A DNA stretch of 64,000 nt from an uncultured Thermoleophilia bacterium. GTDB taxonomy: Bacteria > Actinomycetota > Thermoleophilia > RBG-16-64-13. Both the position numbers and the translations under genes were made by a program. The notes under the pieces are model-generated. The model made no database searches. It was not told the origin of the DNA and was given only the letters and a program-made list of their open reading frames with translations. Where the stretch lies: the NCBI GenBank assembly GCA_963772095.1, contig CAVYVU010000017.1:31402-95401 (forward strand). Direction: 5' to 3'. Shown here in pieces: positions 53,378 to 64,000 of this stretch (positions are counted from its first letter, which is position 1; every line of letters starts with the position of its first letter).

Positions 53378-54550
53378 CTACATAGACCGGCGGAGGATCT
53401 CAGCAGCATCCTCCTCATCAAGGTTTGCCAATGACGAGTCCATGCATGGCTTCATCGTGAGGAAAGCTTCTTGGGCTATGGTCTGGATCATGTCTTCGGT
53501 GACCCCGAGGCTGGATGCCGAGATGTCGAGGTCGACTTTCGCGAGAAAATCCTTGAGCGCCTCGGACGACTGCTCAGCCAGCTCGGTCTCTGTGAGGCCT
53601 TTTCCAGACCTCCCGAGCAACTGGGCGATCTTTGCGTAGCGAGCCGGATTGCTCGCGTATGTGTAACCAAGATACGCGGGTCCCAACGCCGCCATGGTCT
53701 TGCCGTGCACAGAGTCGGTGTGTCCCCCGATGCACTGGCCTATCGCGTGTATCGCGACGACGTTCGCGTTGTCGAATGCGAGCCCGGCAAGGGTGCTGGC
53801 CCACGCCATATTAGTTCTGGCTCCGAGGTTCGAGCCGTCGTGAAAGACGGCTTCAAGATTCGCGACCGTCAGCCGGATCGCTTCCTGACCCACTAAGTCG
53901 CTGAAGAGGTTGGCCCCCCTGGACAAGAACGCCTCCAGCGCGTGAAACAGCACATCGACCCCGGTTGTGGCGGTCACGTCTCCGGGCACCCCCAGCATTA
54001 AGTTGGGGTCGACGATGGACACAGTCGGATACAGACTCCTGTGGACGACGCCCGGCTTGTAGTGCCTCTGCGTGTCTGTGATGACCGCGATGCGCGTGAC
54101 TTCTGACCCTGTGCCGGCAGTGGTGGTGATGGTCACGATCGGGAGAGCGTCCCGAACCCCCACCGCCCACGGGTTCTTGCCGCCCGGCAGGTAGTCGAGG
54201 ACCGACGTGTCATTAGCAGCCGAGAAGGCGATCGCCTTCGCCGCGTCCATCGCGCTGCCGCCTCCCAGACCGACCACGAATGAGCAGTCTTCGTCACGGA
54301 CGACCTTGGCCAGTCGGTCGACATATTCCGCGCGGGGATTAGGCTCTACGCTTTCGTCGACCACCACTGCAACACCGGCTTTGCCCAGCAGATCCGTGAC
54401 CATGCCCAGGATGCCTGTTGCCCTCATGACGTCCGGATACGTTACAAGCAACGCTTTGGATCCGAGCCCGGAAACGGCTTCCGGCAGTCTCGCGACGGAA
54501 CCAGGGCCGAACACGACTCCGGTCGGCAGGCAGAAGTTGAACGGCTCCAT
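53378..54550 (-). CDS. iron-containing (group III) alcohol dehydrogenase
   Basis: GGGSAMDAAKAIA motif and Fe-ADH fold over 390 aa. Confidence 0.85.
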   Translation of the reverse strand: MEPFNFCLPTGVVFGPGSVARLPEAVSGLGSKALLVTYPDVMRATGILGMVTDLLGKAGVAVVVDESVEPNPRAEYVDRLAKVVRDEDCSFVVGLGGGSAMDAAKAIAFSAANDTSVLDYLPGGKNPWAVGVRDALPIVTITTTAGTGSEVTRIAVITDTQRHYKPGVVHRSLYPTVSIVDPNLMLGVPGDVTATTGVDVLFHALEAFLSRGANLFSDLVGQEAIRLTVANLEAVFHDGSNLGARTNMAWASTLAGLAFDNANVVAIHAIGQCIGGHTDSVHGKTMAALGPAYLGYTYASNPARYAKIAQLLGRSGKGLTETELAEQSSEALKDFLAKVDLDISASSLGVTEDMIQTIAQEAFLTMKPCMDSSLANLDEEDAAEILRRSM

Positions 54551-54667: not shown

Positions 54668-56785
54668 TCACTCCGTACCCGGAAGCCCGGTGTGCGGTTG
54701 ATAGACGGCCGAGGCGCCTTCTAAGGCGTCGTCGAGTATTTCCGCGATATCTCGAACGTTTAGCTGCCCCTCAAGTCCCTCGTGTTTTACGCCGTCGTCG
54801 AGCATGATCTTGCAGAAAGGGCAGGCGGTTCCCACCACCTGCGCGCCGGTAGCTGCCATCTCCCGGATGCGCAAGAACTCGATAGGCTCTCCAATCTTCA
54901 TCTCACTCCACATGCGGCCCCCTCCCCCGCCGCAGCAGAAGCCGTCGCGGCCGTGGCGCTGAGGCTCCCTCAAAGACGCGCCTGTCTCGGCGATCAGGTC
55001 GCGGGGCTGCTGATAGATGTCGTTGTAGCGCCCCAGGTAGCAGGAGTCGTGATACGCCACCGTCAGACCGACGGTCGGGGTGACCGGCAGGCGACCGCTC
55101 GACACCAGCTCGAGCAGTAGTTCGGAGTGATGTACCACCTTCCAGTCGGCACCGATCTGAGGGTAGTCGTTGCGGAAGGTGTTGTAGCAATGGGGGCATT
55201 GCGTGAGAATCGCGCGGAAGCGGTACTTGTCGATGGTCTCCTTCAAGGATGCCGCCCCCACTTGGAAGAGCATTTCCTCCCCCATCCGGCGCGCGGCCTC
55301 ACAGCTGCACGTTTCTTCCTCTCCCAGCACGGCGTAGGACACCCCCGCCCGGTCGAGCAGGCGCACGATCGCCCTGGTCACGTTCTGAGAACGCGGATCG
55401 TAGCTGCCCGCGCAGCCGACGAAAAAGAGATAGTCGACGGGTTCGGGCTCGGCGCCCCCGGACGCCTCCGCGTTGTCGGATGGTTTGCCGTCAATTTGGA
55501 TCTCCGCAAGCACGGGTACGTCTAGGCCCAGCCCTTCGGTCCAAGCCATGCGGTCTTTCTGCTTCAACTGCCACGGGTTGCCCCGCATGCCCATGGACTC
55601 GAGGGCCTTGGCCGCGCTGCCGCTCAGGCGGCCTTCGTTGGTGAGGTGACGCCGGATCTCGAGCACCTTGTCGAGCTGGTTGATGGCCACCGGACAGTGC
55701 TCCACACAACTTCTGCAAGTGGTGCAACTCCAGATCTCGTCGTCTCCGATAACGTCCAGCAGGTCGGGGATATCACCCTGCGCGTGAAACCCAGGGAGCA
55801 GGCGGCGGGTTGCTTCGGCGGTCTTCTGCTGCAGGACTTGCCGGCTTTTCAGAACGATCGTCTTGGGATTCAAGGGCTTGCCGGAAGCTGTAGCCGGACA
55901 GACCTCTTCGCAACGGCCGCAGTGTGTGCAGGCATCGAGATCCTCGAGATCGGGCCAAGAGTAGGCGGTGATCGTCCCCACGCCCAGGCTCTCGACCTCC
56001 TCGATGTCCGGGACAAAGGTCATCGAACCCTTCAGGCGCCGGTCGCGCAGGAAGACATTGGCCGGAGCAGTGAAGACGTGCAAGAACTTCGTGAAGCCGA
56101 GCACTCCCACGAAGCCCAGAGTAACCAGCATGTGGAAGATCCAGAGGTACCGGTAGAACGTGCTGACGCCACCCACGCTGGCTATGTTCGCGAGGCCTTT
56201 GCCAAGTCCGTAGCCCACGAAGCTGGCGACCCTCTCATAATGGGGGAAACCAGCCACGTAGATCCGGGCGCCTTCGAGAAGGAAGCCCGTGATCCCGATC
56301 ACGAACAGCAGGATCAGGGGATAGTGGTCGTACCAGCTGCGCTCGAGCTTAGCCGGCCTGCTGATGTAGCGACGCACGGCGGCCAGGATGACACCGATAA
56401 GGAGCGCCAACCCGCCGATCTCCATGATGAAGCTGAACCCAAGATAGAAGCGGCCCATGAAGAAGTGCAGGCCAAAGTCGATGGCGAAGATGAGGATGAT
56501 GGTCCCGATGAGCAGGACCGTGAAGCCCCAGAAGATCGAAAGGTGCATGACCCCCGCGTAACGATCCTCAAGGATGGCCTTCTGCAGAAGACCGTTCATC
56601 ACGAAGTCCCACGCACGCCTCGCCATGTGATCCGTGCGTGTGGTCGGTGCCGGCTGCGCCTTCCTGTACATCCACACCCGGCGGGCAAGGTACCCTATGA
56701 GCGAGAGGACCGCGACCGCGGCTCCCGCGTACATGACGACCTCCGCCCACAGGGGCACGTTCCATAGGAGCTCTCGGGTCTCCAC
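54668..56785 (-). CDS. EtfD-like membrane-bound Fe-S oxidoreductase (DUF224/CCG-domain, HdrD/GlpC-like) predicted to couple Etf to the quinone pool
   Basis: N-terminal roughly 270-aa multi-TM domain; two ferredoxin motifs CTHCGRCEEVCP and CTTCRSCVEHCP; two CCG cysteine-rich domains (FVGCAGSYD, GFCCGGGGG); immediately downstream of etfBA. Confidence 0.75.
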   Translation of the reverse strand: METRELLWNVPLWAEVVMYAGAAVAVLSLIGYLARRVWMYRKAQPAPTTRTDHMARRAWDFVMNGLLQKAILEDRYAGVMHLSIFWGFTVLLIGTIILIFAIDFGLHFFMGRFYLGFSFIMEIGGLALLIGVILAAVRRYISRPAKLERSWYDHYPLILLFVIGITGFLLEGARIYVAGFPHYERVASFVGYGLGKGLANIASVGGVSTFYRYLWIFHMLVTLGFVGVLGFTKFLHVFTAPANVFLRDRRLKGSMTFVPDIEEVESLGVGTITAYSWPDLEDLDACTHCGRCEEVCPATASGKPLNPKTIVLKSRQVLQQKTAEATRRLLPGFHAQGDIPDLLDVIGDDEIWSCTTCRSCVEHCPVAINQLDKVLEIRRHLTNEGRLSGSAAKALESMGMRGNPWQLKQKDRMAWTEGLGLDVPVLAEIQIDGKPSDNAEASGGAEPEPVDYLFFVGCAGSYDPRSQNVTRAIVRLLDRAGVSYAVLGEEETCSCEAARRMGEEMLFQVGAASLKETIDKYRFRAILTQCPHCYNTFRNDYPQIGADWKVVHHSELLLELVSSGRLPVTPTVGLTVAYHDSCYLGRYNDIYQQPRDLIAETGASLREPQRHGRDGFCCGGGGGRMWSEMKIGEPIEFLRIREMAATGAQVVGTACPFCKIMLDDGVKHEGLEGQLNVRDIAEILDDALEGASAVYQPHTGLPGTE

Positions 56786-56794
56786 TCCGCCGTC

Positions 56795-57850
56795 CTAAGA
56801 TGAGGCCTTGCGCCGACGGATCTCCTCAGTGAGGGCGGGCACCACCGTATGCAGGTCCCCTACCAGGCCGAAGTCGGCGAAGGAGAAGATAGGGGCGTCC
56901 GGATCCTTGTTGATGGCCACGATGTAGTCCGAGGTCTGCATGCCTGCCCGGTGCTGGATGGACCCGGAGATGCCACAGGCGATGTAGAGCTTGGGCGAGA
57001 CGGTCTTGCCGGTCTGCCCCACCTGGAACTGATGGGGTCTCCATCCGGAGTCCACAGCCGCCCGGCTGGCCCCGACCGCCGCGCCGAGCTCGTCGGCAAG
57101 CGCCTGGATGATTCCGAAGCCCTCGGCACCGCCAAGGCCACGGCCGCCGGATACTATGATCGCAGCCTCCTCGAGACTGACGATGCCCGTGTTCTCGCAA
57201 ACCACGTCCACGACCGTCACAACCAGTCCACCGGGCCTGAAGTCGATCGGCAGCGGTATCACCTCAGGGCTTGCCGCTGCCTCCTCGCGGGCGAACATGT
57301 TCGACCGCACCGTCGCAAGCGCCGGCGTGGACACGGCTTCCTTCTCGACGATCACGCCTCCCCCAAAACAGGGATGGCTGGCTATCAGACGGCCGTCCGC
57401 AGCTTCCAGACCTGTGACATCCGCCAGAAGACCCACGCCCAAACGCGTGGCACAGGCGGAAGCCATGTCCCGGCCTTCCGTGGAGCCCGAGAAAAGGACC
57501 AACGCGGGAGCAGCGGCCGCGATAGCTGCCATCGCCCCGTCGGTGAAGGGACCGGGTCGAAAGACCGCGAGCTCCGGGCTCTCGACCACATAGACTCGCT
57601 CGGCACCGTAGCGGGCGGCCGCGGCCACAAATGGCCCAGCCTCAGTCGTCATGATCACCACGCTTACGGGGCCGCCTATCGTTCCGGCAAGGGCGCGAGC
57701 CCGCGTGATGCTCTCCAACGTGACATTGGCGAGTTTCCCTTGCCTGGGCTCGGCTACAACAAGGATGCCACTTTCATTACTCACGGATCTATCTCCCATA
57801 CCACGTCGGTCTCCAGTCGGGCACGAAACGGGCGTGTTGTGTTCGCTCAC
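56795..57850 (-). CDS. etfA: electron transfer flavoprotein alpha subunit
   Basis: ILVVAEP... FAD-binding C-terminal domain (YIACGISGSIQHRAGM); likely true start is the GTG near 57784 after a GGAGAT SD. Confidence 0.85.
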   Translation of the reverse strand: MSEHNTPVSCPTGDRRGMGDRSVSNESGILVVAEPRQGKLANVTLESITRARALAGTIGGPVSVVIMTTEAGPFVAAAARYGAERVYVVESPELAVFRPGPFTDGAMAAIAAAAPALVLFSGSTEGRDMASACATRLGVGLLADVTGLEAADGRLIASHPCFGGGVIVEKEAVSTPALATVRSNMFAREEAAASPEVIPLPIDFRPGGLVVTVVDVVCENTGIVSLEEAAIIVSGGRGLGGAEGFGIIQALADELGAAVGASRAAVDSGWRPHQFQVGQTGKTVSPKLYIACGISGSIQHRAGMQTSDYIVAINKDPDAPIFSFADFGLVGDLHTVVPALTEEIRRRKASS

Positions 57851-57856
57851 ACACCG

Positions 57857-58633
57857 CTAGATGAGCTTCTCGCTCGCCAAGAAATCGGCGATCCGCTGGG
57901 CGCCGTCACCGTCGTCCTCAACCTTCACTCCCGCCTTCCGCGGCTCGGGTGAACGGCCGGAGAGAACACGGGTCTTCGCACCAGTCAGTCCAACCTGCGC
58001 TGCGTCCAGTCCCAGAGCGGCTGCGTCTCTTACCTCTAGGGGCTTTTTCTTCGCGCTCATGATGCCTTTCATCGACGGGTAACGAGGCTCGTTAATGCCC
58101 TTCACGACGGAAAGAACGGCAGGCGCGGGGCACTCGTAGACGACGTAGCCCTCTTCTGTCTCGCGATGGACGGCAAGGATGGAGTCGCGGACTTCCACTT
58201 TCGACAAAGAGGAGAGCAAAGGCAGGCCAAGCCGGTCGGCCACAGCCGCGGGCACACAGCCCGTCTCACCGTCCGTGGACCGCATTCCAAAAAGTACGAG
58301 GTCATGGTCGAAAGTCTTGAGCGCCTCCGCCAGGACGTAGGCCGTACTCTGCAAATCCGAGCCGGCTAAAGCATCGTCGCTGACCATCAATGCGCGGTCG
58401 GCACCCATGGCCAGGGCTTTGAGCACAGCCTCGGTGGCCGTCTCCGGCCCCATGCACAGCACGGTGACCTCGCCACCATGAGACTCCCTCAGGCGCAACG
58501 CTTCCTCCACCGCGTACTCGTCGTACGGGTTGAGGATGCAGTCCACGCTACGATCCAGACGCCAAGACACGGGGTCGAGTCTCTTCTCGGCCTCTGTGTC
58601 AACCACCTGCTTCACGCATACCGCGATATTCAC
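57857..58633 (-). CDS. etfB: electron transfer flavoprotein beta subunit
   Basis: MNIAVCVKQVVDTEAEKRLD canonical EtfB N-terminus; GTG start with GGAAGGGAAGG SD. Confidence 0.9.
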   Translation of the reverse strand: MNIAVCVKQVVDTEAEKRLDPVSWRLDRSVDCILNPYDEYAVEEALRLRESHGGEVTVLCMGPETATEAVLKALAMGADRALMVSDDALAGSDLQSTAYVLAEALKTFDHDLVLFGMRSTDGETGCVPAAVADRLGLPLLSSLSKVEVRDSILAVHRETEEGYVVYECPAPAVLSVVKGINEPRYPSMKGIMSAKKKPLEVRDAAALGLDAAQVGLTGAKTRVLSGRSPEPRKAGVKVEDDGDGAQRIADFLASEKLI

Positions 58634-58690
58634 TGGCCTTCCCTTCCTTCACAAGGCGACCTCCGACCGTGCCGCACCTTGAGGCCGGCC

Positions 58691-58780
58691 GCTACATCAT
58701 AATCCGGCAGAGCCGTTGGGCCATCTCTTCTACGTAACTTTTCATGGCTGCGGCAAAGTATTACGATGACGTATAGATGG
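58691..58780. promoter_or_regulatory. left copy of a roughly 90-bp duplicated element in the divergent etfB/lysR promoter region; includes the dyad TACG-N4-CGTA (T-N11-A) and the lysR ATG
   Basis: reverse complement aligns to 59726..59815 with about 81 percent identity overall and about 91 percent over the first 58 bp. Confidence 0.6.
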
Positions 58781-59676
58781 AACTGGATCTCCTCAAATCT
58801 TTCTTGGCCGTGGCGGAGGCACGTAGCTTCAGCCGGGCCGCACGAACCATGCACTCCACTCAGCCTACGCTCAGCCGTCAGGTCGCCCGCCTCGAGACAG
58901 AGCTCGGCACCCCGCTGTTCGAGCGGTACGGAAGACACGTGGAGTGCACCGCCAGTGGGCAGCTGCTGCTCCCGCTGGCCCAGGCGATCGTCACCCGCAC
59001 CGACGAGGCCGTCAGTCTCATCCGTGAGCAGGCCAGAGCTGGTCCGAGTACCGTACGGTTCGGCGCTGTTGGAAACGTCTTTGCCCTCCTGCTGACTCCG
59101 ATCCTGGTCTCTTTCCTCGCGGCCAATCCGAGCGTGAGCGTCGAGCTCATCGAGAAGGACGACGCGCAGCTGGAAGAAGCCGTCATCTCCGGAGAACTGG
59201 ATTGCGCCGTCATGACGCCCTGGCGGTCGACTCGAACCGCCAGTCAATTCTTGGTCGCGGAGGAGATACTTCTGGTGGTCCCCCGCGATCACCCGCTGGC
59301 GAGCCATTCGGCGGTCGCCTTTCGCATGCTTGCGAACGAATCGATACTTCTTCCCCGAGCCACTATGAACGCGGGCAACATAGTGGCTGATGCCCTGCGC
59401 CGGGCCGGCTTCGAACCCAGGTTATCCTATCGAGCGAACTACCCAGAATTGACCAAAGCCTTTGTCAGAAAGGGTCTGGGCGTGGCGCCGATGCCAAAGA
59501 TGCTGGTCTCCCCCGAGACTCTCGAGGGGCTCGTGGCCATTCCTTTCCAGGAACCACTGACCCGCGATCTCGACCTCATCTATCCGCGAGACCGCCCGCT
59601 GCCGGCGGCGGCGCGAGCCCTTATGGTGCACGTCCGGGCCGGTGTTTCTAGTCGTGGGGGAAGCGACCAGGCTTAG
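58777..59676 (+). CDS. LysR-family transcriptional regulator
   Basis: MELDLLKSFLAVAEARSFSRAARTMHSTQPTLSRQVARLE HTH plus LysR substrate-binding domain; divergent from etfB. Confidence 0.85.
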   Translation: MELDLLKSFLAVAEARSFSRAARTMHSTQPTLSRQVARLETELGTPLFERYGRHVECTASGQLLLPLAQAIVTRTDEAVSLIREQARAGPSTVRFGAVGNVFALLLTPILVSFLAANPSVSVELIEKDDAQLEEAVISGELDCAVMTPWRSTRTASQFLVAEEILLVVPRDHPLASHSAVAFRMLANESILLPRATMNAGNIVADALRRAGFEPRLSYRANYPELTKAFVRKGLGVAPMPKMLVSPETLEGLVAIPFQEPLTRDLDLIYPRDRPLPAAARALMVHVRAGVSSRGGSDQA

Positions 59677-59725
59677 GACTTCAGCGCGGCCTGCCACGCT
59701 AGCTTGCTCGCCGATGCCTCCTTCT

Positions 59726-59815
59726 CATCTATACGTCGTCGTAATACTTTGCGCCCGCCATGAAAAGTTGCGTCGAATAGCGGGCCTCGCCTCTCTGTCG
59801 GATTATCATGTAGCG
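59726..59815. promoter_or_regulatory. right (inverted) copy of the roughly 90-bp element, 107 bp upstream of the acyl-CoA dehydrogenase gene
   Basis: CATCTATACGTCGTCGTAATACTTTGCGCCCGCCATGAAAAGTT... matches the reverse complement of 58691..58780; dyad preserved as TACG-TCGT-CGTA. Confidence 0.6.
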
Positions 59816-59921
59816 AACCCAAGCTCCGGGCACCGCGCGTGGCGTGAGAAAAGGGAGCCGGCGGCGGTTCCGGGGGTCGACATGAGCGGCATACGAATGG
59901 GCATGAGCAGGAGGTGCACCT

Positions 59922-61145
59922 TTGGACTTCAGATTGACTGACGAACAGGAAATGACGCGCGACATGGTTCGCGAGTTTGCGCAAGAAGAAGTGAAGACAG
60001 TCGCGATGGAACTCGACGCGAAGAAGGACCCGAAAGACTGCATCCCGTGGGATCTGATCAAGAAGGCCTCCAAGTTGGGCCTCAGAACGGCCGCGATCCC
60101 CGAGAAGTTCGGGGGCGAGGGAGCGGACTATCTCACGCTGGCGCTCATACTCGAGGAGCTCGGGGCTGCCGACCAGGGCTTCGCCAGCATCATCAGAGGC
60201 TGCTATACCGAGTCTCCCAGGCTGATAGCGGAACTGAGTGACGAACAACGGGACGAGTGGCTGCCGAAGTTCCTCGCGGACGACCTGTTCCTACTGGGAC
60301 TGGCCCGCACGGAGCCGGATGCAGGGACCGATTCTCACTACCTCTATGATGAGCCCGGGGCCTCGATACGCACGTTTGCCGAAAAACGGGGCGACGAGTA
60401 CGTCATCAACGGGAGCAAGCATTTCATATCGAGCGGCGGAGTAGCCAAGCTCTATTTCCTCTACGCGAGAACGGACAAGAAGGGACCGATTTCCACGAGT
60501 CTGAGCCTGTTCCTCATGCCTCACGACGCCCCCGGTTTCTCCATAGGCAGATTCCACAACAAGCTGGGAAGAAGGCTGCTTCCCAACGCCGAGTTGGTGT
60601 TCGAGGATGCCCGCATCCCAGCCCGAAATCTGATCGGGGAAGAGGGAGACGCCTGGGGATCCGAGGGTGAAGGTGGAGGAGGGCCACAGAAGGACTGGAC
60701 AAAGACGGGCGCCGGGGCGGCGCCGCCTTTCGGACTTCTCGGCGCCGCCGTGAATCTGGGAACCGTCCGTGCGTGTTACGAAGAGGCCCTGAATTATTCA
60801 CGGAACCGGTTCCAGGGCGGGAAGAAGATAATCGAGCACCAGCATGTCGCTATCAAGCTCGCCCAGATGAAGGTGCAGATCGAGGCAGCCAGGGCGCTCC
60901 TCTGGAAATCTGCCTGGTCCTGGGAAACCAAATACGACTACGATCCCAAGATGGGGATGTTGCTCAAAGCCTATATCGACGAGATGGGCTTGAGTGTGGC
61001 GAACCACGCGGTGGGCATCTTCGGCGGTCTCGGTACCGCGGACGACGACGTACTGATCCAGAAGCTGCTGAGGGACGTTTACACGTTCCTTCATGGATTT
61101 GCCACGACGGATGTTGCCCTGATGATAGGCGCGCCGAGTGCCTAG
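59922..61145 (+). CDS. acyl-CoA dehydrogenase family protein (atypical: Gly-rich insertion; no canonical YEGT catalytic-Glu motif)
   Basis: ACAD fold motifs (LGLRTAAIPEKFGG, RTFAEKRGDEYVINGSKHFISSG); TTG start 7 nt after AGGAGG; lower GC than the left half of the window. Confidence 0.8.
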   Translation: MDFRLTDEQEMTRDMVREFAQEEVKTVAMELDAKKDPKDCIPWDLIKKASKLGLRTAAIPEKFGGEGADYLTLALILEELGAADQGFASIIRGCYTESPRLIAELSDEQRDEWLPKFLADDLFLLGLARTEPDAGTDSHYLYDEPGASIRTFAEKRGDEYVINGSKHFISSGGVAKLYFLYARTDKKGPISTSLSLFLMPHDAPGFSIGRFHNKLGRRLLPNAELVFEDARIPARNLIGEEGDAWGSEGEGGGGPQKDWTKTGAGAAPPFGLLGAAVNLGTVRACYEEALNYSRNRFQGGKKIIEHQHVAIKLAQMKVQIEAARALLWKSAWSWETKYDYDPKMGMLLKAYIDEMGLSVANHAVGIFGGLGTADDDVLIQKLLRDVYTFLHGFATTDVALMIGAPSA

Positions 61146-63663
61146 CGGCGCCGAACAGATCTTTGTCAACTGCACGAACGGCGGCCCCATCCGCGTCCAC
61201 GTACAGGATGGACGGATCACCAGGGTGCGGCCCCTGGTCTTCGACGATACGGATGCCGCCTCCTGGAAACTCGAAGTGGATGGCGAGGAATACACCCCGC
61301 TCAGAAAAGCCTGTGTCGCCCCCTTCGCTTTGACCGAAAGAGCCCGGGTCTATTCGGAAGATAGGATCCTCTATCCCATGAAGCGGGTGGATTTCGATCC
61401 CAAGGGCGAGAGGAACCCCCAAAACAGAGGCAGATCCGGATACGTGAGGATCGGCTGGGACGAAGCGCTGGAGATCGTTTCCAGTGAAATGAAGCGGATC
61501 CGCGCCGACTACGGGCCCGAAGCCATCATGTCCCGGGCCGGTTCTCATCACAACTGGGGCAACCTGGGTTATCGCACGGGCGCGTGGTCACGATTCTTCA
61601 ATCTGATCGGATTCACCGATATCTTCGACAATCCGGACAGCTGGGAAGGCTGGCATTGGGGCGCCACCCACGCCTGGGGTTTCTATCTGGAGACTGGGCA
61701 ATCCCGAGCATTACGACATGCTCGAGGACGCCCTCAGGCACACCGAGTTGATCATCCACTGGGGCAACGATCCCGATTCCACCCACGGCATCTATGGCGG
61801 GAACGAGTCCGCCCTGTGGCGTCTCTGGCTCAAGAAGCAGGGCAAGAAGCAGATCATCATCGACCCCTTCTTACAACTACACGGGTGCCGCCGTGGGCGA
61901 CAAATGGATCGCCTACCGACCGGGCACGACCGCGGCGATGGCCATGGCCATCGCCTACGTGTGGCTGACAGGAAGGCACCTACGACAAGGAGTACGTGGC
62001 CGCCCGCACCGTCGGTTTCGAGGAGTTCAAGAAGCACGTCCTGGGCGAGGACGACGGCGTTCCGAAGACGCCCGGCTGGGCCGGCGGAGATAACCGGTGT
62101 TCCTCCACGAGGACGATCACGGCCCTGGCCCGGGAATGGGCGTCGAAAAGGACCGCCTTGGCCGGCGGGACCAAAGGCGGGGAAGGCGGCTATTGCAGGC
62201 AGGCATACGCCACAGAATCGGCCAGATTGCTGGTCTTGCTGCAGGCCATGCAGGGACTGGGCAAACCGGGCGTGAGCATCTGGGGAACCGCCAACGGACC
62301 GCCGTACAACGCCACGCTCGATTTCCCGGGCTACGCGTCCGGGCGGATTCAACCTGATAGCCGAGAAACCGGCCGTGAACCCCGTGAACCAGCGGGTGTA
62401 TCGGCTGACGGCTCCGGAAGCCATCCTCAGCCCTCCGCTCGAGCTGGATCGGCGAGGGCTTCTGCGGCAACTCACTGGAGCAGCAGTTCATCCCGCACAC
62501 CTATCCGCTTCCCGGCTGTTCCGAGGTGAAGATGTTCTACCGTTACGGCGGCGCTTTCCTGGCCACGATGACGGACACCAATCGATGGGTGAGGATGTAT
62601 CAGAGTCCCAAGCTGGAGTTCGTGGTCAACCAGGACTGCTGGTGGTGCACGGAGACCAGATTGGCGGACATCATCCTTCCGGCCTGCACCAACCTCGAGC
62701 GCAACGACATCAGCGAGTGGGCCAGTTCCGGCGGCTATTCCCTGCACGCTTCCGGCAGCTGCAACCATCGGGTCATCGTCTACCAGCAGAAATGCGTCGA
62801 GCCGGTGGGCGAATCGAAGCCCGACTACGACATCTTTTGCGAGCTGGCCGAGAGACTGGGAGTGGAGGAGGAGTTCACCGAAGGCAATACCTTCGAGCAG
62901 TGGATCGAGAAGATGTTCAACTGGCTCCGATCTGCCCAAGTACATCTCGTATCGAGGAGTTCAAGAAGAAGGGATACTTCGTGGTCCCGCAACTGGAGGA
63001 CTACAAATCGACGCCCGGCTTTGCGCTGGTTCTACGAAGGAAGGCCCTGCGACACTCCCGACACCTCTAATCCGAAGAGGGATACCGAAAAGAGCCGGGA
63101 GCTGGGGACGTACAGCGGGAAGATCGAGTTCGTCTCCCAGAGCTTACTCGCTCATACTGCCCGACGACGACGAGCGGCCGCCGTTGCCGCGCTACATCCC
63201 GAGCTGGGAAGGGCACACCTCGGAACTGGCCGGAGAAGTACCCCCTTCAGCTCATCTCGCCCCACCCCAGGTTCTCGTTCCACACTCAGCACGACAACCA
63301 CGTGCCGTGGCTGTCCGAGATCCCCGGTCACCGGGTGATCAAAGACGGCTACGCCTGGCAGGTCGTCCGCCTCCACCCCGTGGACGCGGAGGCGCGGGGC
63401 ATCAGGCACGGCGACATCGTCAAGCTTTACAACGACCGGGCCTCGGTGCTTGGGCATTGCGCAGATCACCGAGAGGGTGCGTCCCGGTGTGGTCCATTCA
63501 TGCGAGGGATCGTCCAGATACGATCCGCTGGAGCCCGGCAAGGCCGGCAGCACGGATAGGGGCGGCTGCGTAAACCTGCTGACGCCCTCGCGTATGCTGT
63601 CAAAGAATGTGCCGGGTATGGCGCCAAACTCGTGTCTGATAGAAATCGAAAAATGGGAAACAT
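61138..63663 (+). pseudogene. DMSO-reductase-family molybdopterin oxidoreductase catalytic subunit lacking an N-terminal Fe-S motif (pyrogallol-hydroxytransferase-like), broken by at least 6 frameshifts
   Basis: consecutive overlapping ORFs 61138..61968, 61718..62275, 61794..62093, 61996..62529, 62526..63338, 63302..63559 and 63450..63665 each carry contiguous pieces of one molybdoenzyme (IFVNCTNGGPIRVHVQDGRITRVRP N-terminus, IIHWGNDP, YNYTGAAVGDKWIAYRPGTTAAMAMAIAYVW, VVNQDCWWCTETRLADIILPACTNLER, IPGHRVIKDGYAWQVVRLHPVDAEARGIRHGDIVKLYNDRASVLG). Confidence 0.7.
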
Positions 63664-63691
63664 GATCCTAGCCGGTTGAGGTCTGGTTTAT

Positions 63692-64000
63692 ATGGCTCGA
63701 TATGGCCTAGTGGTGGACATAACTAAGTGCAATGGCTGCTACAACTGCTTCCTAGCCTGTAAGGATGAGTATTGCGGCAATGATCACCCTCCTTATTCCG
63801 CGGCCCAGCCCATGACCGGGCAGTTCTGGATGAGGATCGGGGAAAAGGAGAGAGGAAGGTATCCGAAGGTCAAGGTCGCCTATACGGCCGTTCCGTGCAT
63901 GCACTGCGAGAAGCCGCCCTGCGTCGATGCCGGGCGCGAGGATGGTGCTGTGTATCGGAGAGAGCGATGGCATCGTCCTGATCGACCCAGTAAAGGCCGC
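63692..64000 (+). CDS. 4Fe-4S ferredoxin-type electron-transfer (beta) subunit of the molybdoenzyme; partial (runs off the window) and frameshifted near 63950
   Basis: MARYGLVVDITKCNGCYNCFLACKDEYCGN ... VPCMHCEKPPCVDA; then ESDGIVLIDPVKA continues in another frame; absent from the ORF track because no stop lies within the window. Confidence 0.65.
   Translation, partial: MARYGLVVDITKCNGCYNCFLACKDEYCGNDHPPYSAAQPMTGQFWMRIGEKERGRYPKVKVAYTAVPCMHCEKPPCVDAGREDGAVYRRERWHRPDRPSKGR

What the first reader, a model, noticed from the sequence alone, without database searches (positions are those of the whole stretch)
58691..59815. lysR gene bracketed by a roughly 90-bp inverted pair of the same promoter/operator element, placing an identical cassette upstream of both etfBA-etfD and the acyl-CoA dehydrogenase gene
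Positions 58691-58780 and 59726-59815 are reverse complements of each other. Identity is about 81 percent overall, with a 58-bp core at about 91 percent. The left copy is the divergent etfB/lysR promoter region and includes the lysR ATG. The right copy sits 107 bp upstream of the acd TTG start. Because of the inversion, both target transcription units see the element in the same orientation, at 58 bp and 107 bp from their starts. Both copies keep an interrupted dyad TACG-N4-CGTA that fits the LysR T-N11-A rule, next to a TAATACT -10-like hexamer. This looks like a duplicated LysR operator/promoter that puts the Etf electron-transfer module and its partner dehydrogenase under one regulator. The ORF track shows the mirror as near-identical peptides HLYV(I/V)VILC on opposite strands.
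Basis: seen in the sequence. Interest (0 to 1): 0.75.

Follow-up and report, generated by a model that had tools for sequence, protein, structure and literature searches.

The report
Paired LysR operator-promoter modules flanking lysR
The inverted 90-bp pair around this lysR gene is real and is an ordinary but very well conserved thing: two copies of one regulatory DNA module that most likely lets a single LysR-type regulator control the electron-transfer-flavoprotein operon on one side, the acyl-CoA dehydrogenase/molybdenum-enzyme operon on the other, and its own gene.

Summary
The inverted repeat exists: 58690-58779 versus 59726-59815, 74/90 identical, BLAST E 2e-21, with no third copy in 64 kb. 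The 91% core is 44 nt, not 58.

The repeat is not a mobile or generic repeat. In about 30 related uncultured Thermoleophilia/Gaiellales-like Actinomycetota, the same block-structured module abuts every lysR start codon. It recurs, inverted, in front of acd (or etfB in paralogous loci). A pattern scan of 241 million metagenome records found only 50 matches. All lie beside lysR/etfB, acd, a paralogous Mo-oxidoreductase gene or a CMD-family gene.

Conserved blocks, read in the target direction: CTATAC-N6-GTAATACTT, then CATGAAAAGTT, then GAAGTG, then N23, then TANNNT. The nearest target start codon lies at least 31 nt beyond.

lysR-side copies additionally keep an invariant TACNAT ending 10 nt before the lysR ATG. 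Distal copies have lost it. No RNA structure is conserved.

Best reading: a LysR-type operator plus activator-dependent promoter, present twice, with autoregulation of a near-leaderless lysR. The full-length 82% similarity is peculiar to the window's clade (later homogenisation). Elsewhere only the blocks match.

This is a new member of a known kind. Protein binding and transcription start sites remain untested.

The parts
58690..58779 (-). Left (lysR-side, 'L') module. It is the divergent etfB/lysR control region. Read on the - strand it faces etfB, and its last three + strand bases are the lysR ATG.
   Evidence: nhmmer E 1.7e-17. Orthologous copy abuts every lysR start in the related loci.
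59726..59815 (+). Right (distal, 'R') module. It lies 50 nt after the lysR stop and 106 nt before the acd TTG, and faces acd.
   Evidence: E 9e-19. Orthologous copy lies in front of acd in every syntenic locus. It stays with acd in L022 despite a 2.7-kb insertion.
58762..58773 (.). Dyad TACG-N4-CGTA (generalised TAC-N6-GTA) inside the box AAGTATTAC-N5-CGTATAG (58756-58776). Candidate high-affinity LysR recognition site (RBS). It overlaps the putative lysR -10.
   Evidence: Per-column conservation: T58759-C58764 and G58771-A58775 are at or near 100% in both classes. Assignment as RBS is inference from LTTR architecture (PMC8407307, PMC4834489).
59732..59743 (.). The same dyad (TACGTCGTCGTA) in the right module, inside the box 59729-59749.
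58762..58767 (+). TACGAT, a TANNNT -10-like hexamer for lysR. It ends 10 nt before the ATG and there is no Shine-Dalgarno sequence, so the lysR mRNA would be near-leaderless.
   Evidence: A58766 and T58767 are 100% in 34 non-redundant L copies but 17% and 7% in 29 R copies. T58762 is 100% in L against 72% in R. The same TANNNT spacing to the ATG is kept in paralog subfamilies whose boxes differ. The transcription start site is not measured.
58736..58745 (.). Block AACTTTTCAT (target strand ATGAAAAGTT). Near-invariant. Candidate activation-site contact.
   Evidence: IC 1.6-2.0 bits per position in both classes
59760..59769 (.). Block ATGAAAAGTT in the right module.
58727..58730 (.). Block CTTC (target strand GAAG; family consensus GAAGTG), always 23 nt upstream of the target TANNNT. 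Candidate promoter-proximal activation-site contact near -40.
   Evidence: conservation is stronger in R copies (T 100%, T 97%, C 97%) than in L copies (85%, 82%, 65%).
59775..59778 (.). The same block in the right module (GAAT in this genome).
58696..58701 (-). TATGAT on the - strand, the putative -10 of the etfBA-etfD promoter. Predicted start near 58689, giving a 5' UTR of about 56 nt.
   Evidence: The T, A and final T are invariant in both classes while the interior varies (TATCAT, TACTAT, TAGTAT, TACCAT, TATGAT). The module's distal end is never closer than 32 nt to etfB.
59804..59809 (+). TATCAT, the putative -10 of the acd promoter. Predicted start near 59816, giving a 5' UTR of about 106 nt.
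   Evidence: minimum 31 nt, median 104 nt to acd
58777..59676 (+). lysR: a full-length LysR-type regulator of 299 aa, the presumed cognate binder.
   Evidence: Pfam HTH_1 + LysR_substrate. No NCBIfam equivalog reaches its cut-off. The closest solved relatives are an unnamed LysR-family regulator (7w06), BenM, CatM, CysB and OxyR. 791 homologues at E<=1e-20, the best 120 listed being 73-95% identical, with an invariant recognition helix.
54668..58633 (-). Target operon 1: etfB (57857-58633), etfA (56795-57850) and an EtfD-like membrane FeS/CCG oxidoreductase (54668-56785). The Fe-alcohol dehydrogenase gene 53378-54550 follows on the same strand.
   Evidence: Synteny.
59922..63961 (+). Target operon 2: acd (59922-61145), the alpha subunit of a pyrogallol-transhydroxylase-like Mo enzyme (about 61150-63659, broken by several frame changes in this window), and its FeS beta subunit (from 63692, running off the window).
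   Evidence: Synteny.

Best explanation
Each arm is one copy of a conserved cis-regulatory module of about 85 bp: a LysR-type (LTTR) operator fused to an activator-dependent promoter.

Read toward the regulated operon, the module has these parts:
- a dyad-containing box, CTATAC-N6-GTAATACTT, the candidate recognition site, centred about 78 nt upstream of the predicted start;
- two further conserved contacts, CATGAAAAGTT (about -52) and GAAGTG (about -40), which together span about 52 bp, the size of an LTTR tetramer footprint;
- after a fixed 23-nt spacer, an actinobacterial TANNNT -10 hexamer.

The LysR encoded between the two copies binds both. On sensing an unknown co-inducer it activates etfBA-etfD to the left and acd plus the Mo-enzyme genes to the right. 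This couples a dehydrogenase pathway to the electron-transfer chain that reoxidises it.

In the left copy the recognition box also overlaps a lysR-specific -10 (TACGAT) and the near-leaderless lysR start, so occupancy should repress lysR (autoregulation).

The two copies descend from an old duplication that is maintained by selection on the blocks. In the window's clade they were later homogenised over their whole length, which is why they look like a 90-bp inverted repeat here.

Shown: the repeat, block-wise conservation at both sites across species, restriction to this regulon, class-specific differences between the copies, and absence of a conserved RNA structure.
Inferred: that this LysR is the binder, activation versus repression, the transcription start sites and the inducer.
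For: 1. The repeat is real and unique in the window.
2. The gene order etfA-etfB <- lysR -> acd-Mo is conserved in about 28 genome loci. 34 loci carry an L copy plus an inverted R copy, and the nhmmer profile finds nothing else in 1.45 Mb.
3. Conservation is block-wise with fixed spacing, and the spacers vary. In 27 genomes outside the window's clade, L-R identity at variable columns is 0.31, which is background (permutation p = 0.19). What is retained is therefore retained by selection, not by recency.
4. A scan of 241 million metagenome records with ACTTTTCAT-N10-12-AGTATKAC-N6-GYATA found 44 stretches with 50 matches. All lie next to lysR/etfB, acd, a paralogous Mo-oxidoreductase gene or a CMD-family gene.
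5. The R copy follows its target. In L022 a 2.7-kb insertion (DUF5131 plus a SocA/MqsA-like antitoxin) separates it from lysR but not from acd. In L010, L011, L019 and L025 the R copy precedes etfBA.
6. Class-specific conservation: TACNAT is 100% in 34 L copies and lost in R copies. The TANNNT on the target strand is invariant in both classes, with a variable interior.
7. lysR has no upstream in-frame start and no Shine-Dalgarno sequence. The module abuts its ATG in nearly all loci.
8. The LysR recognition helix is invariant among orthologues. Paralog subfamilies with altered helices carry altered boxes at the same position and keep the TANNNT-to-ATG spacing.
9. The layout matches textbook LTTR systems: a divergent regulator gene, a primary site with dyad symmetry overlapping the regulator's own promoter, and 50-60 bp of contacts reaching the -35 region (PMC8407307, PMC4834489). 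The primary site of ThnR at its PC promoter is centred at -76, and ThnR serves several promoters (PMC4834489).
Against: - No binding, footprint or transcription start data exist for these uncultured organisms. All positions relative to the start are predictions.
- The generic sigma-70 scan finds no TTGACA/TATAAT-type promoter in the region. That is expected for an activator-dependent actinobacterial promoter, but it gives no positive support.
- The dyad is short (TAC-N6-GTA). The T-N11-A rule is met only loosely.
- The near-invariance of AACTTTTCAT and AAGTATTAC is higher than for many LTTR activation sites. Another factor (a second regulator or a sigma-factor contact) could share the module.
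- The predicted recognition-site centre (about -78) is one helical turn further upstream than the usual -65.
Confidence: 0.8

Rival explanations
1. The module is a binding site and promoter for a different factor, such as a global regulator or an alternative sigma factor. The adjacent LysR would be incidental, or only one of two proteins acting there.
For: AACTTTTCAT and AAGTATTAC are almost invariant across species, more so than typical LTTR activation sites. GAACTT-N17-GTA loosely resembles ECF-type -35/-10 spacing on the lysR strand (my reading, with no tool support).
Against: - Every match in 1.45 Mb of related DNA and in the metagenome scan is tied to this LysR family or its neighbouring gene classes.
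- The box abuts the lysR ATG in all orthologues, and it changes when the LysR recognition helix changes.
- The blocks are equally conserved in R copies, where no lysR-direction promoter is needed, and the L-specific TACNAT is lost there.
Confidence: 0.1
2. The conserved blocks act at the RNA level, as a 5'-leader, riboswitch or attenuator shared by the etfB and acd mRNAs.
For: CATGAAAAGT and ACTATCATG are partly complementary and could pair in a transcript. No terminator is predicted between lysR and acd, so read-through RNA would contain the right module.
Against: - Rfam finds nothing in the region at E<=1 except a chance snoRNA hit inside lysR.
- RNAalifold on 29 target-strand modules predicts 0 base pairs and no covariation.
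- Conservation is at the level of sequence, with TANNNT-type variation typical of a -10 hexamer.
- The module can end only 31-32 nt before a start codon.
Confidence: 0.04
3. The arms are recombination substrates. On this view lysR is an invertible or convertible cassette, and the repeat exists because of, or for, DNA rearrangement rather than regulation.
For: - In the window's clade the two copies are 58-67% identical at columns that are otherwise at a background of about 31%, which indicates homogenisation between inverted copies.
- In L093 lysR is deleted down to a remnant of about 100 nt, leaving the two modules back to back.
- L109 and L010-type loci keep a vestigial lysR 5' end beside the etfB module.
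Against: - lysR orientation is fixed. It is divergent from etfB in 57/57 loci and co-directional with acd in 48/49.
- Outside one clade the copies share only the functional blocks, too little for homologous exchange.
- Block-wise purifying selection and class-specific hexamers are not explained by a recombination role.
Confidence: 0.03
4. The arms belong to a generic dispersed repeat (MITE/REP-like) or are a recent neutral duplication with no function.
For: Inverted arms bracket a single gene. The arms are AT-richer than the surrounding sequence.
Against: - There are only two copies in 64 kb.
- There are exactly two per syntenic locus in about 30 species, at orthologous positions.
- There are only 50 matches in 241 million metagenome records, all in the same gene contexts.
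- Similarity does not extend beyond the arms.
- The pattern of conserved blocks and variable spacers shows long-term selection.
Confidence: 0.02

Closest known systems
Canonical LTTR divergent-promoter systems (e.g. BenM/CatM at benA/catB in Acinetobacter; general model in PMC8407307 and PMC4834489)
   Same: - The regulator gene is transcribed divergently from a target operon.
- A dyad-containing primary site overlaps the regulator's own promoter, which implies autoregulation.
- Conserved contacts span about 50 bp toward the target -35 region.
- The protein has HTH_1 + LysR_substrate domains, and BenM/CatM are among its closest solved relatives.
- The box ATAC-N6-GTAA resembles the BenM/CatM ATAC-N7-GTAT site (from my own knowledge, not tested here).
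   Different: - The half-site spacing is N6, and T-N11-A is met only loosely.
- The predicted site centre is about -78, not -65.
- The host is an uncultured anaerobic actinobacterial lineage.
- lysR appears to be near-leaderless.
- The second copy of the whole operator-promoter lies immediately downstream of the regulator gene, in inverted orientation.
- Nothing has been shown biochemically.
ThnR of Sphingopyxis granuli (tetralin degradation), PMC4834489
   Same: - One LTTR serves several promoters, each with its own conserved primary binding site.
- One primary site is centred at -76.
- Neighbouring promoters are coordinated through a DNA loop, which offers a precedent for two sites acting together.
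   Different: - The ThnR promoters PB and PC are adjacent and divergent, not separated by the regulator gene.
- ThnR needs the co-activator ThnY and activates rather than represses its own gene.
- ThnR controls aromatic ring-cleavage genes, not etf or acd genes.
GcdR-gcdH of Pseudomonas putida / Azoarcus (LysR regulator of glutaryl-CoA dehydrogenase), PMC6667623
   Same: - A LysR-family activator sits next to an acyl-CoA dehydrogenase operon.
- The protein is a tetramer.
- Footprinting gives two protected regions, one with a T-N11-A interrupted inverted repeat.
   Different: - There is a single target promoter.
- The box is different (AGTGA-N7-TCACT).
- The etf genes are not part of that cluster.
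- The window's LysR does not reach any NCBIfam equivalog cut-off, so orthology to GcdR is not established.

Membership tests
LTTR-regulated operator/promoter | The adjacent regulator is a full-length LysR-type protein (N-terminal winged HTH plus LysR substrate-binding domain). | tested here: met
   Pfam HTH_1 (2.4e-22) and LysR_substrate (7.8e-41). Aligns with solved LTTRs over residues 1-274.
LTTR-regulated operator/promoter | The regulator gene is divergently transcribed from a target operon and shares the control region with it. | tested here: met
   The lysR ATG at 58777 and the etfB GTG at 58633 are 143 nt apart on opposite strands. The arrangement is divergent in 57/57 loci.
LTTR-regulated operator/promoter | A primary (recognition) site with dyad symmetry containing T-N11-A, centred near -65 (up to about -76) from the target start. 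| tested here: inconclusive
   A conserved dyad TAC(G)-N4-(C)GTA is present at 58762-73 and 59732-43. Strictly it is T-N10-A. T-N11-A is available from T58761 to A58773. The centre is about -78 only if the start lies 7 nt past TANNNT, and the start has not been measured.
LTTR-regulated operator/promoter | Contacts extend over 50-60 bp to an activation site at or near the -35 region. | tested here: inconclusive
   Conserved blocks span about 52 bp, from CTATAC to GAAGTG, with fixed spacing and 23 nt to the -10. Conservation is a proxy for contact, not a footprint.
LTTR-regulated operator/promoter | The primary site overlaps the regulator's own promoter (negative autoregulation). | tested here: inconclusive
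   The L-specific invariant TACNAT lies inside the dyad, 10 nt before the ATG, with no Shine-Dalgarno sequence. Promoter function is inferred.
LTTR-regulated operator/promoter | Specific binding of the regulator to the site, and inducer-dependent activation. | not testable with these tools
   Needs EMSA, DNase I footprinting and reporter assays. The only indirect support is that the box and the recognition helix co-vary among paralog subfamilies.
MITE / REP-like dispersed repeat | Many copies scattered through the genome in unrelated contexts. | tested here: not met
   Two copies in 64 kb. Two per locus in 34 related loci. 50 matches in 241 million metagenome records, all in the same gene contexts.
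MITE / REP-like dispersed repeat | The unit has its own terminal inverted repeats and target-site duplications. | tested here: not met
   Each arm is a single asymmetric module. Similarity does not extend beyond the arm ends, and there are no flanking direct repeats.
Invertible DNA switch | Both orientations of the bracketed segment are found among strains or reads. | tested here: not met
   Orientation is fixed in 57/57 (etfB) and 48/49 (acd) loci. The exception, L034, is a paralogous locus without etfB.
Invertible DNA switch | An adjacent site-specific recombinase/invertase. | not tested
   The neighbouring genes identified are metabolic. I made no dedicated recombinase search of the whole window.
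Riboswitch / cis-regulatory leader RNA | A conserved secondary structure with covariation, or a match to a known RNA family. | tested here: not met
   Rfam finds nothing relevant at E<=1. RNAalifold on 29 sequences gives 0 pairs.

The most novel reading that the evidence does not exclude
The two inverted modules might not act independently. LysR tetramers bound at both could bridge them and loop out the 946-bp lysR gene, as ThnR loops between its sites. One nucleoprotein complex would then co-ordinate etfBA-etfD, acd-Mo and lysR expression. Physical pairing of the inverted copies would also explain their episodic homogenisation (window clade) and the clean loss of lysR between them (L093).
Probability: 0.1. 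Interest if true: 0.5.

Novelty: new member of a known kind. Interest (0 to 1): 0.33.

Why it matters
The result gives a precise, comparatively validated cis-element and a small predicted regulon for a LysR family that is widespread (hundreds of homologues, often 2-3 paralogs per genome) in uncultured anaerobic Thermoleophilia/Gaiellales-like Actinomycetota, where no genetics exists. The predicted regulon comprises etfBA-etfD, acd with a transhydroxylase-like Mo enzyme, a second Mo-oxidoreductase and a CMD-family gene.

It links a dedicated Etf/EtfD electron-transfer route to a specific acyl-CoA dehydrogenase/Mo-enzyme pathway whose substrate is unknown. It also supplies testable -10 elements, a probable near-leaderless regulator gene and a defined operator for heterologous assays or biosensor design.

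Mechanistically it is what a specialist would expect of an LTTR, so it is useful annotation rather than a surprise.

Tried and rejected
- An exact-sequence look-up of the window's LysR found no record. I therefore worked from homologues.
- The generic sigma-70/terminator scan found no promoter or terminator in 58550-59980. It is uninformative for activator-dependent actinobacterial promoters.
- The Rfam scan and the consensus RNA folding were negative, so I rejected the RNA-element idea.
- I looked for sigma-54 (GG-N10-GC) and ECF-like (GGAAC-N16-17-GTT) patterns by eye in the conserved blocks. No convincing, conserved match turned up, so I did not pursue it.
I rejected it because the final position is not T on the target strand, and because a strictly conserved TANNNT exists 55 nt further downstream.
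- I considered a remnant second lysR beside the right arm. The 50 nt between the lysR stop and the arm, and the sequence after the arm's ATG (a 9-codon ORF), show nothing coding.
- I considered inversion switching and rejected it on fixed orientation.
- A literature search for this cluster or regulator (LysR + Etf + acyl-CoA dehydrogenase + transhydroxylase) returned nothing specific.
- NCBIfam gives no equivalog for the LysR or the ACD, so the inducer and substrate cannot be named.
Full report
OBSERVATION

The inverted pair is in the sequence. The repeat finder reports arms 58690-58779 and 59726-59815, 90 nt, 82% complementary, 946 nt apart. The ungapped identity is 74/90. Each arm finds the other with blastn E = 2e-21 against the whole 64-kb window, and no third copy scores better than E = 0.07. 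The best 58-nt stretch is 49/58 (84%). The '91%' figure applies to the 44 nt next to lysR, 58736-58779. The mirrored peptides HLYVIVILC and HLYVVVILC are reproduced and are a by-product of the repeat.

- Fe-alcohol dehydrogenase, 53378-54550 (-)
- an EtfD-like membrane FeS/CCG oxidoreductase, 54668-56785 (-)
- etfA, 56795-57850 (-)
- etfB, 57857-58633 (-)
- lysR, 58777-59676 (+)
- acd, 59922-61145 (+)

Downstream of acd lie the alpha and beta subunits of a Mo enzyme. They have the domain architecture of pyrogallol-phloroglucinol transhydroxylase-type enzymes: an AthL-like first domain in alpha, and 4Fe-4S plus a CarboxypepD_reg-like domain in beta.

WHERE IT COMES FROM, AND SYNTENY

The LysR has 791 homologues at E <= 1e-20. 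The best 120 are 73-95% identical, and nearly all come from metagenome-assembled genomes labelled Thermoleophilia, Gaiellales or Actinomycetota. A scan of one genome per species returned 79 loci, of which L001-L052 belong to this clade. Several genomes hold two or three paralogs. The order etfA-etfB <- lysR -> acd-Mo is conserved in about 28 of these loci.

THE PAIR IS CONSERVED, AS BLOCKS

The etfB-lysR spacer and the reverse complement of the lysR-acd spacer match each other in most of these loci. The match runs over about 90 nt in the closest relatives and over a 30-40-nt core in more distant ones. Laying the sequences out shows a fixed architecture. Read toward lysR it is:

ACATGATAGTCC - N23 - CACTTC - N5/6 - AACTTTTCATG - N10/11 - AAGTATTAC(G/C)AT..CGTATAG - ATG.

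A fuzzy pattern finds 71 instances in the window plus 79 loci. Each one either abuts a lysR start codon or lies inverted in front of acd, or in front of etfB in loci L010, L011, L019 and L025. The single exception is a third copy in L002. A profile HMM run with all filters off finds:
- exactly two copies in the window (E 1e-17 and 1e-19);
- an L copy plus an inverted R copy in 34 loci;
- the extra L002 copy;
- nothing else in 1.45 Mb.

IT IS NOT A DISPERSED REPEAT

The degenerate pattern ACTTTTCAT-N10-12-AGTATKAC-N6-GYATA occurs in only 44 stretches (50 matches) of the 241-million-record metagenome collection. Every match lies beside one of four things:
- a lysR start together with etfB;
- acd;
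- a paralogous Mo-oxidoreductase gene (L086, L104, L120, L121);
- a CMD-family gene (L123, and likewise the L002 third copy).

The distal copy belongs to its target gene, not to the 3' end of lysR. In L022 a 2.7-kb insertion carrying DUF5131 and a SocA/MqsA-type antitoxin lies between lysR and the module, and the module remains in front of acd.

WHAT SELECTION KEEPS, AND WHAT DIFFERS BETWEEN THE TWO COPIES

Column statistics come from 34 non-redundant lysR-side (L) copies and 29 distal (R) copies.

Near-invariant in both classes:
- A58696, T58700 and A58701, which read T-A-N-N-N-T on the target strand;
- AACTTTTCAT (58736-45);
- AAGTAT.AC (58756-64);
- CGTATA (58770-75).

Class-specific differences:
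- In L copies 58762-58767 always reads TACNAT (A58766 and T58767 at 100%). In R copies the same two columns are A 17% and T 7%. T58762 is 100% in L and 72% in R.
- R copies are stricter at CACTTC (T 100%, T 97%, C 97%, against 85%, 82% and 65% in L) and at C58770 (100% against 50%).

The target-strand hexamer varies as TATCAT, TACTAT, TAGTAT, TACCAT and TATGAT. It is always TANNNT with a free interior, which is the pattern expected of an actinobacterial -10 element (established knowledge). The distal end of the module is never closer than 31-32 nt to the etfB or acd start codon. The medians are 63 nt and 104 nt. That leaves room for a start site and a leader carrying a Shine-Dalgarno sequence. 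Such a sequence is visible before etfB and before acd (AGGAGG at 59909-14), but not before lysR.

lysR has no earlier in-frame start, and its ATG follows GTATAG directly. With TACNAT ending 10 nt upstream, the simplest reading is a lysR mRNA with a leader of 0-4 nt.

IS THE FLANKED LysR THE BINDER?

This is inference, with three supports.
1. Location: the box touches the lysR start codon in every orthologue.
2. Protein conservation: the recognition-helix region of the protein is invariant among orthologues, matching the invariance of the box.
3. Co-variation among paralogs: paralog subfamilies with a changed helix (for example STQSTVSRQ, LTQPAISRQ and VTQPALSRQ in place of STQPTLSRQ) carry changed boxes at the same position (for example GACCTAAGATAG, CATTACAAT..GCATAG and GCATTACCAT..GTTATC). 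They keep the TANNNT-to-ATG spacing.

The architecture fits the general LTTR model: a divergent regulator gene, a dyad primary site overlapping the regulator's own promoter, and 50-60 bp of contacts running to the -35 region (PMC8407307, PMC4834489). Here the conserved blocks span about 52 bp. If transcription starts about 7 nt past TANNNT, the dyad TAC-N6-GTA is centred near -78, CATGAAAAGTT near -52 and GAAGTG near -40. A primary site at -76, and one LTTR serving several promoters, are both documented for ThnR (PMC4834489).

The protein is a typical full-length LTTR. Its nearest solved relatives are an unnamed LysR-family regulator (7w06), BenM, CatM, CysB and OxyR. It reaches no NCBIfam equivalog cut-off.

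ALTERNATIVES

- RNA element. Rfam finds nothing relevant, and RNAalifold on 29 target-strand modules predicts no pairs at all.
- Invertible cassette. lysR is divergent from etfB in 57/57 loci and co-directional with acd in 48/49.
- Neutral recent duplication. In 27 genomes outside the window's clade the two copies are no more alike at variable columns than copies from different genomes (0.31, background; p = 0.19). The shared blocks are therefore old and maintained.
- Another factor using the site. This cannot be excluded. I rate it at about 0.1.

WHY IT LOOKS LIKE A 90-bp REPEAT HERE

At the 36 variable columns the window's L and R copies are 67% identical. L001 gives 58%, L002 58% and L003 47%, against a background of about 31%. 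Cross-comparisons within this clade (window L against L002 R, 0.56; window R against L002 L, 0.64) are as high as the orthologous comparisons. The homogenisation, by gene conversion or re-duplication, therefore predates the split of these lineages. The R copies of this clade also carry the L-type GATG/GATA end. The third copy in L002 retains similarity to the first codons of lysR. So in this clade L-type modules have been copied to new places.

COMPARISON AND NOVELTY

Functionally this is a textbook LTTR arrangement extended to a second, inverted operator-promoter just downstream of the regulator gene. The closest analogues are the BenM/CatM-type divergent promoters, the multi-promoter ThnR system, and GcdR-gcdH as a LysR/acyl-CoA-dehydrogenase pair (PMC6667623). 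I found no paper describing this regulator, its box or this etf/acd/Mo cluster. I file it as a new member of a known kind. The cis-element and regulon are new and well defined; the mechanism is expected. Interest: 0.33.

STATUS OF THE CLAIMS

Shown:
- the repeat itself;
- its conservation and block structure;
- its restriction to this regulon;
- the class-specific hexamers;
- the fixed orientation of lysR;
- the absence of a conserved RNA structure.

Inferred:
- LysR binding;
- activation of both operons;
- autorepression of lysR;
- the positions of the transcription start sites;
- the leaderless lysR mRNA;
- the existence of an inducer.

Noticed in passing
window 61150-63659 (+): The alpha-subunit gene of the Mo enzyme, downstream of acd, is broken into at least 6 pieces in different reading frames relative to the intact 841-aa orthologue of L004. 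The 95%-related locus L001 shows only one frame change. The neighbouring lysR, acd and etfAB genes are intact. This is either local assembly indel errors (the closest relative, L001, comes from an 'MFD' MAG; the long-read origin is my assumption) or a decaying pseudogene.
   Followed up: partly
L093 1041-1459 (Ga0209253_10027597): Between etfB and acd, lysR is reduced to a remnant of about 100 nt (ATGGGACTCGAC...TGA). The L and R modules therefore sit back to back about 70 nt apart. This looks like a natural lysR deletion between the inverted modules.
   Followed up: partly
L002 1662-1746 (+) and L123 1328-1366 (+): Extra stand-alone copies of the module lie in target orientation in front of a carboxymuconolactone-decarboxylase (CMD/AhpD-like) family gene, with no lysR beside it. 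The L002 copy keeps similarity to the first lysR codons (GTATAGACGGCTCTGG). In L002 an aldehyde:ferredoxin oxidoreductase gene follows etfD.
   Followed up: partly
L086, L104, L120, L121 (metagenome loci): The module also lies 150-270 nt upstream of a paralogous Mo-oxidoreductase gene, 38-48% identical to the window's alpha subunit. A paralog of that kind is found 4-5 kb downstream of acd in many genome loci, without a detectable module there.
   Followed up: no
L022 8900-11640: An insertion of about 2.7 kb lies between lysR and the acd-side module. It carries DUF5131 (phage Gp37/Gp68-like) and a SocA/Panacea + MqsA-like antitoxin gene, and looks like a small mobile or defence islet.
   Followed up: partly
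L010, L011, L019, L025, L109: A paralogous arrangement. lysR is divergent from a xanthine-dehydrogenase-family Mo operon (L010 4840-7913). It is followed by a 150-aa ORF with no Pfam match, and then by an inverted module in front of its own etfBA(-etfD). In L109 that module is followed by a vestigial lysR 5' end (ATGGGATCGGATCTC).
   Followed up: partly
L035-L045, L052 (paralog loci): More distant LysR paralogs (56-66% identity), up to three per genome, carry subfamily-specific box variants abutting their start codons. They are often next to other Mo-oxidoreductase genes. This suggests a family of parallel LysR/Mo-enzyme regulons in these Actinomycetota.
   Followed up: partly
L018 and L020 7982-8001; L024 and L033: In a few lineages the conserved TATAGATG is not the lysR start. 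In L018 and L020 it opens a 5-codon mini-ORF (ATG AAG TAT GGG GTG TGA) that overlaps the real ATG 18 nt downstream, and that ATG is preceded by a G-rich Shine-Dalgarno-like run. lysR would therefore be leadered there rather than leaderless.
   Followed up: no
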